This document shows, one piece after another, positions 61,270 to 64,000 of a DNA stretch of 64,000 nucleotides (position 1 is its first letter; each line of letters opens with the position of its first letter). Origin of the DNA: Candidatus Caldarchaeum sp. (GTDB lineage: Archaea; Thermoproteota; Nitrososphaeria_A; Caldarchaeales; Caldarchaeaceae); contig JAWACZ010000003.1 of NCBI GenBank assembly GCA_038896555.1, positions 4,249 to 68,248 of the forward strand, in the 5' to 3' direction. The notes below the pieces were generated by a model, which was not told the DNA's origin, did not search any database, and saw only the letters and a program-made list of their open reading frames with translations. A program made the translations under genes and the position numbers.

Positions 61270-62001
61270 TTGCTTGTTTTAGGTGGGTCCGTGCTAGCTG
61301 TAGCAACCGCCGTTCGGCTTGCAAAGAAAGGCGAAAGAGTCACATTAATATACACGGGTAGACGGCTGGGGCCTTCCCCCTTCGCAGTTTTGACAAAAAC
61401 GTTTCTGAAGGAAGTTGGTGTAGAGCCATCACGTCATTCCGAGGCCGCGGTCAACACATGCTACGTTGATGGACGCAGCTTTAGGCTGCCAACCCCTCTT
61501 TACCTCTGTAGAACCACACCCCTGCTGGAGGATGCGATATCTTACAACGAGGTAAAGTTTTGTCATAGAATGCCGCAAAACGTTAACGAGGAGGTAGTTG
61601 ACTGCAATCCAAAATTTTTAAAAGGCTTAAGGCTTGTTCAGGCCGCCTTTGTTACCAGATGCAGCTCTGACGAGTGCCTAGCCATAGAGTCTAAGCCGTA
61701 CCATCATTTTTCCGCAACCCTGTACAGTGAAAAAAAGGCTGTGTCATACATTTACTTTGTCGACGAGGTTGTTAAGCCGGCTGGTTTGCTGGCCGCTGTC
61801 GAAAGATATACAGGCTATGTCAACCGCTTCAACGGCGAGGTATCGGCCGCTGTTTGCTTGGCTGGACAGGACGTTGCCGAAACCATAAACGACCGGGATG
61901 TGGTGGCGGAAAACGTGAAATACGTTCTAAATGTTTTAAAAGGCTTCAAACCTGAGCCATCGGAGGACACCTTCTCCAGCGTCTTCACCTGTCTAGCTTA
62001 A
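61270..62001 (+). CDS. Hypothetical protein with degenerate N-terminal Rossmann-like segment
   Basis: MLVLGGSVLAVATAVRLAKKGERVTLI resembles, but does not satisfy, GxGxxG/A. TTG start. No other motif. Confidence 0.45.
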   Translation: MLVLGGSVLAVATAVRLAKKGERVTLIYTGRRLGPSPFAVLTKTFLKEVGVEPSRHSEAAVNTCYVDGRSFRLPTPLYLCRTTPLLEDAISYNEVKFCHRMPQNVNEEVVDCNPKFLKGLRLVQAAFVTRCSSDECLAIESKPYHHFSATLYSEKKAVSYIYFVDEVVKPAGLLAAVERYTGYVNRFNGEVSAAVCLAGQDVAETINDRDVVAENVKYVLNVLKGFKPEPSEDTFSSVFTCLA

Positions 62002-62349: not shown

Positions 62350-62383
62350 AACCCGGTTTAAACCGGGTTACCCATATCTTTTT
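62350..62383 (+). terminator. Perfect 20-nt palindrome plus T5 tract after alba
   Basis: AACCCGGTTTAAACCGGGTT (62350-62369) is followed by ..ATCTTTTTAT (T5 ending about 62381), directly downstream of the alba stop. Confidence 0.45.
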
Positions 62384-62411
62384 ATCCGGCACAATATTTT
62401 AAAAATCCGGG

Positions 62412-63056
62412 TTGGGGGAAAGTACCAGCGCCAGCTTTGGATGGACGTGGACAATCTGTAAGCTATGCGGCATGAAGACTATTACGGGAAAGTTTTGCAT
62501 GCGGTGCGGTGCAGTTCTCGACCAGACGCAGAAACCAGAACCTGTACAGTATGTTTACACATTCGACGTCATAGTTCTTGGAGAAGATGGCGTCGGCAAA
62601 ACTAGTTTGATAAACAAATGGGCGAAAACACCTCAACCTACTTTATCACAGGCGACTGTTGAAGCCGTTAAAAAGGCCGTGTTTGACGGCGTTGAGGTCA
62701 GCCTTAGAATGAGGGAAATGGAACAAAACATCGCCAAGGTCGCTGGGAAGATTGATGCTGCCGTTGTGGTTTTCGAGCTTACGCGCCGCACGACGTTTGT
62801 CAGAACTATGCGCTATGTCAGGCTTTTAAGAGAGGTCGATCAAATGCCGTTGGTTTATCTAGTGGGCAACAAGTGCGACCTAGACGGCAGACAGGTCTCC
62901 TTCGACGAGGCTGCTGGCACGGCGAGAGATTTAGGGGCTCAATATTTTGAAACATCAGCTAAATCAGGATACAACGTTGACTTAGTTTTTAAAAAGCTTT
63001 TTAAAGACCTTCTGACAAGAAGGCTCAACGAACTTAAGAGGATGCTTCAGCAATGA
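62412..63056 (+). CDS. Ras-superfamily (Rab-like) small GTPase with N-terminal zinc ribbon
   Basis: CKLCGx9CMRCG ribbon. G1 GEDGVGKTS, G4 GNKCDL, G5 ETSAKSG. The G3 position reads RMREMEQ instead of DTAGQE. TTG start is uncertain. Confidence 0.8.
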   Translation: MGESTSASFGWTWTICKLCGMKTITGKFCMRCGAVLDQTQKPEPVQYVYTFDVIVLGEDGVGKTSLINKWAKTPQPTLSQATVEAVKKAVFDGVEVSLRMREMEQNIAKVAGKIDAAVVVFELTRRTTFVRTMRYVRLLREVDQMPLVYLVGNKCDLDGRQVSFDEAAGTARDLGAQYFETSAKSGYNVDLVFKKLFKDLLTRRLNELKRMLQQ

Positions 63057-64000
63057 GCCATGATTCAATATTGAGGAGAAAAGGGTTGCAGCAATTCATT
63101 AAAAGAATCATAGAATCGCGTATAGAGTCATTCGAGCCTATGTTTGATGCAGGTGGGTGCCGTTATCCGTTTGTGGAGGAGGTTTTGAACACCGACAGCG
63201 TTGACGCTTTCAACGTTTTGGAAGCCCTGGCAGGTTTAGGTGTTTTGGAGAAACAGCTGCTTGAATCAACGATGGCGTGTCCGGATTGCGGCAATGTGTA
63301 CTTTAGCGTGAAGCCAGTCTGCCCGACATGCAGCTCGAGCCGCATCCTCAGAGGAAACGTCATAGAACATCTATCATGTGGATACGTTGACTTCGAACAG
63401 CAGTATTACGATAAAGGGTTTGTATGTCCTAGGTGTGATAGAGAACTTAAGGCATTGGGTGTAGACTACAGACGTGCAGGCATTTTCTACAAATGCATTT
63501 CATGCGGCCGTGTAACCGCCCTGTCGATCAAAAGATATGTGTGCACCGGATGCATGAGGGCTCTTTCAGAGGATGAGCTAGTGTTGAAACCAGTTAACAG
63601 ATACGTTGTGGTCTATGATAAACTGTTAAAACTGTGCAGTGGCCTTGCAGACATTTCGCCAATCATCTCACACCTAGAATCCAAAAATTACATCTTTAAA
63701 ACACCTGCTCAGATAACAGGCTCCTCCGGGGTCAAGCATGAGTTTACGCTCTTCGTCACCAAGCGCGGCGCATCCCCCTCGTCAGGTGTTGTTATAGATG
63801 TTGTCGGTTGGGCTGAAGAATCTAAGGTTTACGAGCTTTTCACAAAAAGCTTCGACGTAAAAGCTGGTGCAACAATGTTGTTCGTATTAGGGAAGGTTGA
63901 TGAGAAAATAGTCAAGCTGGCCAAGACCTTTAACATAAGCGTTTTTGAAGGAGAGTCTGCTGAGGAATTGCTTGCGAAAGTGAGGCAGCCTTTGGGGGCT
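63053..64000 (+). CDS. Multi-zinc-ribbon protein, 3' end outside window (not in the ORF track)
   Basis: My own translation from the ATG at 63053 (ATGA overlap with the GTPase stop) is open to base 64000. It reads MSHDSILRRKGLQQFIK...VLEALAGLGVLEK (wH-like), CPDCG..CPTC, CPRC..CISCG, CTGC, then GSSGVKHEFTLFVTKRG...VIDVVGW.... Confidence 0.7.
   Translation, partial: MSHDSILRRKGLQQFIKRIIESRIESFEPMFDAGGCRYPFVEEVLNTDSVDAFNVLEALAGLGVLEKQLLESTMACPDCGNVYFSVKPVCPTCSSSRILRGNVIEHLSCGYVDFEQQYYDKGFVCPRCDRELKALGVDYRRAGIFYKCISCGRVTALSIKRYVCTGCMRALSEDELVLKPVNRYVVVYDKLLKLCSGLADISPIISHLESKNYIFKTPAQITGSSGVKHEFTLFVTKRGASPSSGVVIDVVGWAEESKVYELFTKSFDVKAGATMLFVLGKVDEKIVKLAKTFNISVFEGESAEELLAKVRQPLGA

What the first reader, a model, noticed from the sequence alone, without database searches (positions are those of the whole stretch)
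62412..64000. Rab/Ras-like small GTPase with zinc-ribbon head and eroded G3 motif, translationally coupled to a multi-zinc-ribbon protein
The 214-aa ORF has textbook Ras-superfamily G1 (GEDGVGKTS), G4 (GNKCDL) and G5 (ETSAKSG, the Rab/Ras-type spelling). Where DTAGQE is expected, the sequence is RMREMEQ. Both the Mg/water-coordinating Asp and the gamma-phosphate-sensing Gly are therefore missing, which suggests a non-canonical switch or a pseudo-GTPase. It carries an N-terminal CxxC-x9-CxxC ribbon. Its stop overlaps (ATGA) the start of an ORF absent from the supplied track because it runs off the window (63053 to beyond 64000). That ORF has a wH-like N-terminus, at least three further Cys-pair ribbons, and a C-terminal alpha/beta domain (..KHEFTLFVTKRG..VIDVVGW..) of unknown function. 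Archaeal small GTPases are usually paired with Roadblock/MglB-type partners, so this partner is different.
Basis: partly seen in the sequence, partly recalled or inferred. Interest (0 to 1): 0.7.

Follow-up and report, generated by a model that had tools for sequence, protein, structure and literature searches.

The report
Switch-less Rab-like GTPase and partner
A hot-spring archaeon (Candidatus Caldarchaeum) keeps a small Rab-like GTPase that has lost its on/off switch, gained a zinc ribbon, and is always encoded just before a zinc-rich 'TackOD1' protein; in related archaea this gene pair sits beside a sugar-polymer synthase, which points to an undescribed archaeal regulatory module.

Summary
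ORF 62412-63056 encodes a 214-aa Ras/Rab-fold protein with an N-terminal CxxC-x9-CxxC zinc ribbon. G1, G4 and G5 are intact, but eight residues including DxxG are deleted and the switch II helix is missing. Its stop overlaps (ATGA) the start of an ORF that runs off the window.

From a 93%-identical syntenic genome, that ORF is a 346-aa protein. It consists of a TackOD1 domain (Pfam 1e-31), a restriction-endonuclease-like C-terminal domain without the canonical catalytic motif, and a long helix.

The pair is conserved throughout Candidatus Caldarchaeum. It also occurs in unrelated neighbourhoods of other TACK archaea, where the GTPase has an intact WDxxG motif and a PgaC-like membrane GT2 synthase follows.

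Within Caldarchaeum the decay is graded:
- G3 is lost in all.
- G4 and G5 have drifted in some.
- All G motifs are lost in one lineage.
- One lineage keeps only a 141-aa relic.

dN/dS is 0.18-0.26, and the zinc ribbon is the best-conserved segment.

Best reading: this is a pseudoGTPase that probably still binds nucleotide. It serves as a constitutive subunit of a TackOD1 regulatory protein, which acts on a membrane partner.

It is a new variant of a known kind, and none of this has been tested biochemically.

The parts
62350..62369 (+). Perfect 10+10 nt hairpin (AACCCGGTTT/AAACCGGGTT) just after the Alba stop codon. It is probably the Alba terminator and separates Alba from the GTPase operon.
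   Evidence: 100% complementary arms. The stem is conserved with loop changes in orthologous loci L002, L004 and L005.
62373..62386 (+). Conserved A/T box (CATATCTTTTTATC; consensus ATATTTTTAT) about 27-33 nt upstream of the TTG start. It is a candidate archaeal TATA box for a (near-)leaderless GTPase-partner transcript.
   Evidence: Invariant T-run in the DNA alignment of five orthologous intergenic regions. The promoter role is inferred and was not tested.
62412..63056 (+). Gene for a 214-aa zinc-ribbon Rab/Ras-fold protein that lacks G3 and switch II (pseudoGTPase).
   Evidence: Pfam Ras 3e-23; orthologues; alignments; model, pLDDT 89.5; Rab structures, TM 0.74-0.86; dN/dS 0.18-0.26.
62457..62510 (+). 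N-terminal zinc ribbon, C16-x2-C19-x9-C29-x2-C32, preceded by the W-x-W motif.
   Evidence: Read from the sequence. It is conserved in all non-relic Caldarchaeum orthologues and in relatives with intact G3 (L038, L054, L055). It is the most conserved segment of the protein, with mean pairwise identity 0.59. Model pLDDT is 82-90.
62580..62606 (+). G1 / P-loop, GEDGVGKTS (residues 57-65), intact.
62703..62756 (+). Site of the lost G3 motif and shortened switch II (L98-D115: LRMREMEQNIAKVAGKID). Eight residues (WDxxGxxx) are missing and there is no alpha2 helix.
   Evidence: Alignment gaps. The model has no helix between beta3 (94-103) and beta4 (116-122). The segment is only 19% conserved among orthologues.
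62865..62882 (+). G4, GNKCDL (NKxD guanine-specificity motif), intact.
62949..62963 (+). G5, ETSAK, intact.
62976..63050 (+). Long C-terminal helix (residues 189-213, ..LFKDLLTRRLNELKRMLQQ). It is the family signature shared with relatives that have an intact switch, and there is no C-terminal Cys for prenylation.
   Evidence: Model helix 189-213, pLDDT 95-97. It is conserved in all groups and is the main part kept in the L010 relic.
63053..64000 (+). First 316 of about 346 codons of the partner gene (TackOD1 domain, restriction-endonuclease-like C-terminal domain, C-terminal helix). Its ATG overlaps the GTPase stop (ATGA).
   Evidence: Full length from the syntenic locus L002, which is protein P0121. 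Model pLDDT 88.8.
63116..63607 (+). TackOD1 domain (partner residues 22-185): a winged-helix-like N-terminal part followed by a beta-rich module. It carries 11 conserved Cys (C76, C79, C90, C93, C109, C125, C128, C148, C151, C164, C167) and H106.
   Evidence: Pfam PF18551, 1.3e-31, 110 bits against a cutoff of 32. Cys and His invariance. This matches the published description of 5 CxxC plus 1 HxxC (PMC5847659).
63689..63952 (+). C-terminal alpha/beta domain (partner residues about 213-300) with a restriction-endonuclease-like (PD-(D/E)xK) fold. It has a GxSGxxH signature but no canonical catalytic D...(D/E)xK.
   Evidence: Foldseek against the PDB: Can2, Cdn1, VC1899, AF1548, Bax1, Ecl18kI and MspJI, E 3.5e-5 to 1e-2, prob 1.0. 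Conservation profile over 44 non-redundant relatives.

Best explanation
The two genes form one operon. It encodes a two-protein regulatory module of TACK archaea: a Rab/Ras-fold small GTPase, and a cytoplasmic protein made of a TackOD1 domain, a nuclease-like domain and a C-terminal helix.

Ancestral form (inferred from relatives). The GTPase is a normal GTP/GDP switch. It feeds into the TackOD1 protein, as a receiver (REC) domain or a KaiC-like ATPase does in other lineages. The TackOD1 protein in turn acts on a PgaC/IcaA-like membrane GT2 polysaccharide synthase encoded next to it.

Form in this window (genus Candidatus Caldarchaeum). The GTPase first gained an N-terminal zinc ribbon. It then lost the DxxG motif, the switch II helix and the constraint on switch I. 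It probably still binds a guanine nucleotide, because G1, G4 and G5 are intact. It can no longer sense the gamma-phosphate or hydrolyse GTP by the canonical mechanism.

It therefore most likely works as a pseudoGTPase: a constitutive, nucleotide-stabilised structural subunit. It would be held on the TackOD1 protein through the zinc ribbon and/or the C-terminal helix.

In Caldarchaeum the GT2 gene at the downstream position is replaced by a polytopic membrane protein of 336-348 aa and unknown family. This protein is the likely target there.

Shown: anatomy, gene linkage, motif loss, purifying selection. Inferred: physical complex, nucleotide binding without switching, and regulation of the membrane protein.
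For: Anatomy and motif loss. The protein has a Ras fold with G1, G4 and G5 intact and an 8-residue deletion of WDxxGxxx. The model lacks alpha2.

The switch regions are unconstrained. Among 14 Caldarchaeum orthologues the mean pairwise identity is 0.14 for switch I and 0.19 for the G3 remnant. It is 0.59 for the zinc ribbon, 0.52 for G1 and 0.40 for the C-terminal helix.

The gene is not a dead gene. dN/dS is 0.18-0.26 in four orthologue pairs. The ORF and the overlap with the partner gene are retained in all lineages.

The decay is graded, which fits a structural role:
- L018/L052 have a drifted G4 (VNMKDE) and G5 (EVSTS).
- P0156 (L037) has lost G1, G4 and G5 but keeps the zinc ribbon, the C-terminal helix, its full length and a 4-nt overlap with the partner gene.
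- L010/L042/L043 keep only a 141-aa relic with ETSAK and the C-terminal helix.

The functional link of the pair is independent of synteny:
- L007/L008/L085: GTPase, TackOD1, GT2.
- L054/L055: zinc-ribbon GTPase with WDT[AS]GG, TackOD1, GT2.
- L056-L063: GTPase, TackOD1, KaiC, GT2.
- L040.
- L041: a GTPase fused to half of the partner's C-terminal domain, next to KaiC and GT2.

Linkage counts. Of the 40 partner-family clusters (70% identity) with downstream sequence, 30 have the GT2 synthase within 2.5 kb and 6 have the Caldarchaeum membrane protein. Of the 42 with upstream sequence, 10 have the GTPase directly upstream.

Other input modules. REC-TackOD1 followed by GT2 occurs in Nitrosopumilus (L033). 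TackOD1 was defined as a response-regulator output domain (PMC5847659).

The GT2 is closest to PgaC/IcaA (TIGR03937, 190 bits, below the equivalog cutoff).
Against: - There is no biochemical evidence for nucleotide binding, for lack of hydrolysis, or for a physical complex.
- G1, G4 and G5 are kept in most lineages. This shows that the nucleotide still matters, so a non-canonical switch is not excluded, for instance one where the partner supplies the missing residues.
- In Caldarchaeum the GT2 is absent from the locus and the downstream membrane protein has no known family. The output in this organism is therefore unknown.
- The link to the membrane protein rests on synteny among related genomes only, and the gene is missing in L016.
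- Most TackOD1-GT2 loci (32 of 42 clusters) have no GTPase, so the GTPase is accessory.
Confidence: 0.55

Rival explanations
1. The protein is still a working molecular switch that uses a non-canonical mechanism. Other residues, the zinc ribbon or the TackOD1 partner would take over gamma-phosphate sensing and catalysis, as a GAP-like or co-GTPase. GTP/GDP state would still control the module.
For: - G1, G4 and G5 are conserved under purifying selection in most Caldarchaeum lineages. This argues that nucleotide binding is still selected.
- A second lineage (group D, WDANRD) also changed the G3 glycine, yet kept switch I Thr and a full-length switch II. The family therefore tolerates G3 variation.
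Against: - Both switch segments evolve like linkers, with identity 0.14 and 0.19, and differ in length and sequence between orthologues. That is not expected for a relocated sensor.
- The switch I Thr is present in the window protein but not in most orthologues.
- One lineage lost all G motifs yet kept the protein and the coupling.
Confidence: 0.25
2. The GTPase gene is simply decaying: a pseudogene in progress with no remaining function. It would be retained only because its 3' end carries the translation-initiation region of the partner gene.
For: - A graded series ends in a 141-aa relic in one lineage (L010/L042/L043).
- The GTPase evolves faster than the partner, for example 62% against 81% identity in the same genome pair.
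Against: - dN/dS is 0.18-0.26, not about 1.
- Full-length ORFs without frameshifts are kept across partner divergence down to about 49% identity.
- The four zinc-ribbon cysteines and the C-terminal helix are conserved even where the G motifs are gone.
Confidence: 0.07
3. The pair is a nucleic-acid-directed system, either DNA/RNA binding or cleavage or an anti-virus defence. The wH, the zinc ribbons and the PD-(D/E)xK-like domain of the partner would act on nucleic acid, and the GTPase would be a regulatory NTPase.
For: - Foldseek matches the partner's C-terminal domain to Can2, Cdn1, Card1-like proteins, Bax1, Ecl18kI and MspJI nuclease domains.
- The published comparison of TackOD1 cysteines with the PriA zinc-binding insert (PMC5847659).
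Against: - The canonical D...(D/E)xK residues are not conserved. Only GxSGxxH, K265 and D268 are.
- There are no hits to any PADLOC defence model.
- The conserved neighbours are a GT2 synthase, KaiC and REC, not defence or DNA-metabolism genes.
- The locus is stably syntenic among housekeeping genes rather than sitting in a variable island.
Confidence: 0.1

Closest known systems
Eukaryotic and Asgard Rab/Ras-family small GTPases (Pfam PF00071; closest solved structures Rab6, Rab11, Rab8, Rab5)
   Same: - Same fold: TM 0.74-0.86, with 25-37% identity.
- Same G1 (GxxxxGKT/S), G4 (NKxD) and Rab/Ras-type G5 (ETSAK).
- Relatives in the same gene-pair family have a full WDxxG motif and a switch I PT motif.
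   Different: - No DxxG motif and no switch II helix.
- Switch I is not conserved.
- An N-terminal zinc ribbon is present.
- A long C-terminal helix replaces the hypervariable tail, and there is no C-terminal Cys for prenylation.
- The gene is in an operon with a TackOD1 protein.
- The Rab-like protein of C. subterraneum was listed as a divergent long branch in PMC4915359. That paper contains none of the terms searched for switch II, G boxes, catalysis or genomic context.
PseudoGTPases (CENP-M, Rnd1/Rnd3, the pseudoGTPase domains of p190RhoGAP)
   Same: - G-domain fold with one or more G motifs lost.
- These proteins act as scaffolds or allosteric subunits rather than switches (review PMC10211241).
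- The window protein resembles the class that still binds nucleotide, and the P0156 orthologue resembles the class that binds none.
   Different: - All the examples tabulated in the one review read are eukaryotic. Here the protein is archaeal, with an added zinc ribbon.
- Intact, half-eroded, fully eroded and relic forms of the same orthologue are all found in one genus.
- Function and nucleotide binding are untested.
TackOD1 (PF18551, arCOG06883), a response-regulator output domain of TACK archaea
   Same: - The partner matches the Pfam model well above threshold.
- It has the published hallmark of 11 conserved Cys, arranged as 5 CxxC plus 1 HxxC.
   Different: - It is a stand-alone TackOD1 followed by a restriction-endonuclease-like domain and a long helix.
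- A small GTPase gene takes the place of the REC domain as the adjacent, probable input module.
- The published function is 'obscure', with a noted association with thaumarchaeal type IV pilus loci. Here the dominant neighbour is a PgaC-like GT2 synthase.
MglA/MglB-type prokaryotic small GTPase with a Roadblock/LC7 partner
   Same: A prokaryotic Ras-superfamily GTPase encoded next to a dedicated partner protein (general knowledge of the family).
   Different: - The partner is not a Roadblock/LC7 or longin protein, and Pfam finds none in the locus.
- The G domain is Rab/Ras-like by best hits rather than MglA-like.
Bacterial exopolysaccharide synthases with cytoplasmic regulatory subunits (PgaCD, IcaAD, BcsA-PilZ)
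   Same: - In relatives, the module's third gene is a membrane GT2 closest to PgaC/IcaA.
- It is preceded by a soluble protein and tightly coupled to it.
- The resemblance in how it works, a regulated processive synthase, is an inference.
   Different: - The regulatory protein is unrelated (TackOD1 plus a nuclease-like fold).
- The inputs are a small GTPase, REC or KaiC rather than c-di-GMP.
- In the window's genus the synthase is replaced by an unknown membrane protein.
PD-(D/E)xK nuclease domains of Can2/Card1/Cdn1, AF1548 and Bax1
   Same: The fold of the partner's C-terminal domain (Foldseek prob 1.0, about 150 aligned columns).
   Different: - Sequence identity is 10-15%.
- The catalytic D...(D/E)xK motif is not conserved. 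A family-specific GxSGxxH...K...D signature is conserved instead.
- There is no CARF domain and no defence context.

Membership tests
Ras-superfamily small GTPase (Pfam PF00071) | G-domain fold (six-stranded sheet, five helices) | tested here: met
   Pfam Ras 3e-23, 82.6 bits against a cutoff of 21.6. AlphaFold model pLDDT 89.5. Foldseek Rab/Ras hits with TM 0.74-0.86. Helix alpha2 is missing.
Ras-superfamily small GTPase (Pfam PF00071) | G1 P-loop, GxxxxGK[ST] | tested here: met
   GEDGVGKTS, residues 57-65.
Ras-superfamily small GTPase (Pfam PF00071) | G2 / switch I Thr that coordinates Mg2+ and the gamma-phosphate | tested here: inconclusive
   T82 aligns with the Rab switch I Thr in the window protein. 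The position is not conserved in orthologues, and the segment has 14% mean identity and low pLDDT.
Ras-superfamily small GTPase (Pfam PF00071) | G3 DxxG motif and switch II | tested here: not met
   An 8-residue gap lies where relatives have WDxxGxxx, and there is no shifted DxxG. The model has no alpha2 helix.
Ras-superfamily small GTPase (Pfam PF00071) | G4 NKxD and G5 SAK (guanine specificity) | tested here: met
   GNKCDL and ETSAK.
Ras-superfamily small GTPase (Pfam PF00071) | GTP binding and hydrolysis | not testable with these tools
   Needs recombinant protein.
Rab family proper | C-terminal Cys prenylation motif and Rab-specific (RabF) motifs around switch I and II | tested here: not met
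   The protein ends in ...LKRMLQQ with no Cys, and the switch II region that carries most RabF motifs is deleted. 'Rab-like' refers only to best-hit similarity.
PseudoGTPase (G domain lacking one or more G motifs, non-switch function) | G-domain fold with loss of at least one catalytic or nucleotide-sensing motif | tested here: met
   G3 and switch II are lost. Orthologue P0156 has lost G1, G4 and G5 as well.
PseudoGTPase (G domain lacking one or more G motifs, non-switch function) | Demonstrated lack of GTP hydrolysis or switching | not testable with these tools
   Inferred only, from the unconstrained switch segments.
TackOD1 domain proteins (PF18551 / arCOG06883) | Match to the Pfam model above the gathering score | tested here: met
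   110 bits against a cutoff of 32, residues 22-185, model positions 23-187 of 188.
TackOD1 domain proteins (PF18551 / arCOG06883) | Eleven conserved Cys forming five CxxC motifs plus one HxxC motif | tested here: met
   C76/C79, C90/C93, H106/C109, C125/C128, C148/C151 and C164/C167 are invariant or nearly so in 44 non-redundant relatives. Description in PMC5847659.
TackOD1 domain proteins (PF18551 / arCOG06883) | Fusion to a REC receiver domain (response regulator) | tested here: not met
   The partner has no REC domain. REC-TackOD1 forms exist in Nitrosopumilus relatives. The family also includes stand-alone forms, so this does not exclude membership.
PD-(D/E)xK restriction-endonuclease-like nucleases | Alpha/beta core fold | tested here: met
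   Foldseek hits to Can2, Cdn1, VC1899, AF1548, Bax1, Ecl18kI and MspJI, on a model with pLDDT 88.8.
PD-(D/E)xK restriction-endonuclease-like nucleases | Catalytic D...(D/E)xK residues | tested here: not met
   No conserved ExK lysine, and the first acidic residue is variable (T in the window protein). H229, K265 and D268 are conserved instead. No structural superposition of active sites was possible.
MglA/MglB-type GTPase-Roadblock pair | Adjacent Roadblock/LC7 (MglB) partner gene | tested here: not met
   Pfam annotation of the window's neighbours and of syntenic loci shows Alba upstream and TackOD1 downstream, with no Roadblock gene.
Anti-phage defence systems (PADLOC) | Match of any component to a defence-system model | tested here: not met
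   No hits for the GTPase, the partner or the membrane protein.

The most novel reading that the evidence does not exclude
Small Ras/Rab-like GTPases, REC domains and KaiC-like ATPases are interchangeable input modules of a previously unrecognised archaeal signalling device. The TackOD1 / nuclease-like protein is the output subunit that gates a PgaC-like exopolysaccharide synthase, and so biofilm or cell-envelope polymer production.

Candidatus Caldarchaeum then shows, within one genus, the step-by-step conversion of such a GTPase into a prokaryotic pseudoGTPase. The steps are gain of a zinc-ribbon tether, loss of the switch, loss of the nucleotide pocket, and finally a relic. Over the same span the module is rewired to a new membrane protein.
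Probability: 0.4. Interest if true: 0.75.

Novelty: new variant of a known kind. Interest (0 to 1): 0.62.

Why it matters
- A dedicated effector for an archaeal Ras-like GTPase. Small Ras-like GTPases of non-Asgard archaea have almost no known partners or functions. Here the partner is a TackOD1 protein and the plausible output is a PgaC-like polysaccharide synthase. This makes the function testable.
- A first functional context for TackOD1. The published function of this domain is 'obscure'.
- A natural series for studying pseudoGTPase origin. One genus holds intact, switch-less, pocket-less and relic versions of the same orthologue. The pseudoGTPases tabulated in the one review read here are eukaryotic, and how such proteins arise, and what part of a G domain is retained for scaffolding, is poorly documented.
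- A correction to public annotations. Several of them, including that of Candidatus Caldarchaeum subterraneum, start the gene inside the zinc ribbon.

Tried and rejected
- Complex prediction. There is therefore no interface model.
- First locus scan. The scan with the 19-sequence partner alignment failed for lack of a conserved stretch and was repeated with 8 sequences.
- Shifted DxxG motif. I looked for one and found none in any Caldarchaeum orthologue.
- Downstream membrane protein:
  - No Pfam or NCBIfam hit.
  - Its homologues are all 'hypothetical'.
  - hhalign finds no relation to the GT2 synthase (probability 0.15%).
- Defence-system reading. There are no PADLOC hits.
- Contigs too short to help. 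Look-ups for P0167 and P0181 returned contigs under 2 kb. For P0167 this gave no neighbourhood at all. For P0181 it showed only the start of a TackOD1 gene.
- Other genes in the window. I searched for GT2, KaiC or membrane-protein homologues and found none beyond a negligible KaiC-like hit.
- Literature. I searched for TackOD1, arCOG06883, pseudoGTPase with archaea, and small GTPase with TACK and zinc ribbon. No description of this pair was found. The library holds only open-access papers, so this absence is weak evidence.
Full report
**1. What is in the window**

ORF and family. The ORF at 62412-63056 (+ strand, TTG start, 214 aa) is present as described. Pfam places residues 53-200 in the Ras family (3e-23, 82.6 bits). 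The closest solved sequences are Rab6, Rab11, Rab5 and Ral.

Model. An AlphaFold model built on 50 relatives has mean pLDDT 89.5 and pTM 0.79. It superposes on Rab11, Rab8 and Rab5 structures with TM 0.74-0.86.

Motifs, read from the sequence:
- a zinc ribbon, C16-x2-C19-x9-C29-x2-C32, preceded by W-x-W;
- G1, GEDGVGKTS (57-65);
- G4, GNKCDL (152-157);
- G5, ETSAK (180-184);
- a long C-terminal helix (189-213) that ends in ...MLQQ with no cysteine.

Downstream gene. The stop codon overlaps the next ATG (cagcaATGAgcc, 63053-63056). That frame stays open for 316 codons to the end of the window.

**2. The G3 motif is really gone**

In alignments with 18 and then 35 relatives, the window protein and all its Caldarchaeum orthologues have an 8-column gap exactly where relatives read W-D-x-x-G-x-x-x. 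No shifted DxxG motif is present. HMMER alignments to Rab6 structures also open gaps there. The model goes from beta3 (94-103) to beta4 (116-122) with only a 3-residue turn and no alpha2 helix.

The putative switch I Thr (T82) is present in the window protein. It is not conserved in orthologues.

Among 14 orthologues the mean pairwise identity differs sharply by region:
- zinc ribbon, 0.59;
- G1 region, 0.52;
- G5, 0.46;
- C-terminal helix, 0.40;
- G3 remnant, 0.19;
- switch I, 0.14.

The two switch segments are normally among the most conserved parts of a small GTPase (general knowledge of the family). Here they evolve like linkers.

**3. Source organism and the rest of the partner gene**

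The nearest protein (93% identity) comes from Candidatus Caldarchaeum sp. MAGs. Their contigs are syntenic with the window: YchF-like GTPase, carbohydrate kinase, a 236-aa ORF, Alba, the GTPase, the partner, and further genes.

In these contigs the partner is 346 aa, so the window lacks only about 30 codons and the frame is not interrupted.

Pfam matches partner residues 22-185 to TackOD1 (PF18551, 1.3e-31, 110 bits). Galperin et al. defined this domain as a response-regulator output domain of TACK archaea. They describe 11 conserved Cys (five CxxC motifs plus one HxxC) and call its function 'obscure' (PMC5847659). An earlier paper noted it as arCOG06883 in thaumarchaeal type IV pilus loci (PMC4858521). 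All 11 Cys and the His are conserved here.

The partner model (pLDDT 88.8) has four parts:
- a winged-helix-like N-terminal part;
- a beta-rich zinc module (65-186);
- an alpha/beta domain (213-300);
- a 40-residue C-terminal helix.

Foldseek matches the alpha/beta domain to PD-(D/E)xK nuclease domains: Can2, Cdn1, VC1899, AF1548, Bax1, Ecl18kI and MspJI (E 3.5e-5 to 1e-2). The canonical catalytic residues are not conserved in 44 non-redundant relatives. The conserved signature is GxSGxxH229 ... K265 ... D268. I therefore read it as a nuclease-derived, probably non-catalytic domain.

**4. The pair is a conserved unit**

Partner orthologues (49-67% identity) occur in all Caldarchaeum species sampled, including C. 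subterraneum CSUB_C0103. In each, a Ras-family gene lies directly upstream and overlaps it by 4-26 nt.

The adjacency also appears in unrelated neighbourhoods:
- L007/L008/L085: GTPase, 1-nt gap, TackOD1 protein, GT2.
- L040.
- L054/L055: GTPase, TackOD1, GT2.
- L056-L063: GTPase, TackOD1, KaiC-like ATPase, GT2.
- L041: the GTPase P0164 carries a C-terminal extension that matches the second half of the partner's C-terminal domain. It lies between two KaiC-like genes and a GT2.

**5. The wider module**

I clustered 114 partner-family loci, taken from GTDB species genomes and JGI metagenomes, at 70% identity into 45 clusters.
- Of the 40 clusters with downstream sequence, 30 have a membrane GT2 glycosyltransferase within 2.5 kb, usually directly downstream on the same strand.
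- Six have a polytopic membrane protein of 336-348 aa instead. All six are Caldarchaeum.
- Of the 42 clusters with upstream sequence, 10 have the GTPase directly upstream.

The GT2 proteins match Glycos_transf_2, Glyco_trans_2_3 and Chitin_synth_2. Their best NCBIfam hit is PgaC/IcaA, poly-beta-1,6-GlcNAc synthase (190 bits over nearly the whole model, below the equivalog cutoff).

In Nitrosopumilus a REC-TackOD1 response regulator precedes the same kind of GT2 (L033).

The core therefore appears to be the TackOD1 protein plus the synthase. A REC domain, a KaiC-like ATPase or a small GTPase are alternative companions.

**6. History of the GTPase**

- Group A (L007, L036, L040, L041): no zinc ribbon, WDxxG intact.
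- Group B (L038/L039, L054, L055): zinc ribbon present, WDT[AS]GG intact, switch I YYPT intact.
  - L038 has the same Alba-GTPase-TackOD1 synteny as the window.
  - L054 and L055 are followed by GT2.
- Group C (all Caldarchaeum, including the window): zinc ribbon present, G3 deleted, followed by the unknown membrane protein.
- Within group C:
  - L018/L052 have a drifted G4 (VNMKDE) and G5 (EVSTS).
  - P0156 (L037) has lost G1 (VKDDDEEAS), G4 (GIKPEK) and G5 (EINDD). It keeps the zinc ribbon, the C-terminal helix, its full length and a 4-nt overlap with the partner gene.
  - L010/L042/L043 hold a 141-aa relic without the cysteines or the middle of the G domain. The relic keeps ETSAK and the C-terminal helix, and still ends on the partner's start codon.
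- Group D (L056-L063 and others): no zinc ribbon, and an independent change of the G3 glycine (WDANRD).

The eroded genes are under purifying selection, with dN/dS 0.18-0.26 in four pairs. They evolve faster than the partner.

**7. Interpretation**

Shown:
- a Rab/Ras-fold protein that lacks the gamma-phosphate-sensing elements;
- a conserved operon with a TackOD1 / nuclease-like protein;
- linkage of that protein family to PgaC-like synthases;
- a graded loss of G motifs while the zinc ribbon and the C-terminal helix are retained.

Inferred:
- the two proteins form a complex;
- in the ancestral state, GTP/GDP state controlled the TackOD1 protein and through it the synthase;
- in Caldarchaeum the GTPase became a constitutive subunit that is probably still nucleotide-bound (a pseudoGTPase), and the added zinc ribbon made switch-dependent binding dispensable;
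- the target there is the unknown membrane protein.

The main rival is a non-canonical but working switch. It is favoured by the retention of G1, G4 and G5. It is disfavoured by the unconstrained switch segments and by the fully eroded orthologue.

A plain pseudogene is unlikely given dN/dS, the intact ORFs and the conserved cysteines.

A nucleic-acid or defence role is unlikely for three reasons. The catalytic motif is absent. There are no PADLOC hits. The neighbours are housekeeping or synthase genes.

**8. Comparison with what is known**

The protein is Ras-superfamily by fold and by G1, G4 and G5. It fails the G3 criterion and the Rab-specific criteria, since it has no prenylation Cys and the switch II region is deleted. 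It should be called Rab-like only in the sense of best-hit similarity.

It fits the definition of a pseudoGTPase. The examples tabulated in the one review read, such as CENP-M, the Rnd proteins and p190RhoGAP, are eukaryotic (PMC10211241).

Surkont and Pereira-Leal listed one Rab-like protein in C. subterraneum as a divergent long branch (PMC4915359). Their paper contains none of the terms I searched for switch II, G boxes, DxxG, catalysis or genomic context.

I found no paper describing the GTPase-TackOD1 pair or the TackOD1-GT2 linkage. The searchable library is open-access only, so this is weak evidence of novelty.

**9. Verdict**

The finding is a new variant of a known kind: a switch-less, zinc-ribbon-bearing archaeal small GTPase with a new class of dedicated partner. 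Interest is moderate to high, because it gives testable functions to two poorly understood archaeal protein families and a natural series of pseudoGTPase evolution. All functional claims remain computational.

Noticed in passing
window 62350-62386: A perfect 10+10 nt hairpin (AACCCGGTTT/AAACCGGGTT) lies directly after the Alba stop codon. It is followed by a conserved ATATTTTTAT box about 27-33 nt before the GTPase start. Both are conserved in orthologous Caldarchaeum loci, with changes in the hairpin loop. They are probably the Alba terminator and the TATA box of the GTPase operon.
   Followed up: partly
L004 5370-6011 (C. subterraneum BA000048.1); also P0148, P0152, P0153, P0172: Public gene calls start the GTPase at an internal ATG inside the zinc ribbon (MKCG.../MWCG...). 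This cuts off the first CxxC. The upstream in-frame sequence encodes the full W-x-W-x3-CxxC-x9-CxxC head.
   Followed up: yes
L010 4579-5004 (also L042, L043): In one Caldarchaeum lineage (partner 67% identical) the GTPase slot holds a 141-aa ORF. It has lost the cysteines and the central G domain but keeps ETSAK and the C-terminal helix. It still ends on the partner's start codon.
   Followed up: yes
L037 194-820 (P0156): This orthologue has G1, G3, G4 and G5 all destroyed (VKDDDEEAS, GIKPEK, EINDD). Its zinc ribbon, C-terminal helix and length are intact, and it overlaps the TackOD1 gene by 4 nt.
   Followed up: yes
L041 1500-2375 (P0164): A 291-aa GTPase with an intact G3. Its C-terminal extension matches the second half of the partner's nuclease-like domain (35 bits). 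It is flanked by two KaiC-like genes and a GT2 synthase, so it may be a partial gene fusion of the two module components.
   Followed up: partly
L056-L063, L079, L091, L114: A separate hot-spring clade of partner-linked GTPases without a zinc ribbon carries WDANRD in place of WDxxG, with the G3 glycine replaced by Arg. It sits next to TackOD1, a KaiC-like ATPase (with a GvpD-like region) and a GT2.
   Followed up: partly
L002 11715-12725; L004 7051-8097; L010 6011-7048 (just beyond the window's end): A polytopic membrane protein of 336-348 aa (about 8-10 hydrophobic segments) follows the partner in nearly all Caldarchaeum loci and overlaps it in L010. It has no Pfam or NCBIfam match, all its homologues are 'hypothetical', and it is unrelated to the GT2 synthase.
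   Followed up: partly
window 61270-62001: A 243-aa ORF lies between the carbohydrate kinase and Alba. It has only weak N-terminal Rossmann-type (Pyr_redox) hits below threshold. It is conserved in synteny across Caldarchaeum and has no family assignment.
   Followed up: no
L001 2356-4872 (syntenic with the window, upstream of the thiolase gene that ends at window 58488): An 838-aa protein combines HAD-hydrolase, PIN and PilT/T2SSE-type ATPase (and KH) domains. This is an unusual fusion that is conserved in Caldarchaeum loci.
   Followed up: no
L022 765-2732, L026 852-2841, L028 3938-5824: Some Korarchaeum and Nitrososphaerota loci carry two tandem paralogues of the TackOD1 / nuclease-like protein in front of the GT2 synthase.
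   Followed up: no
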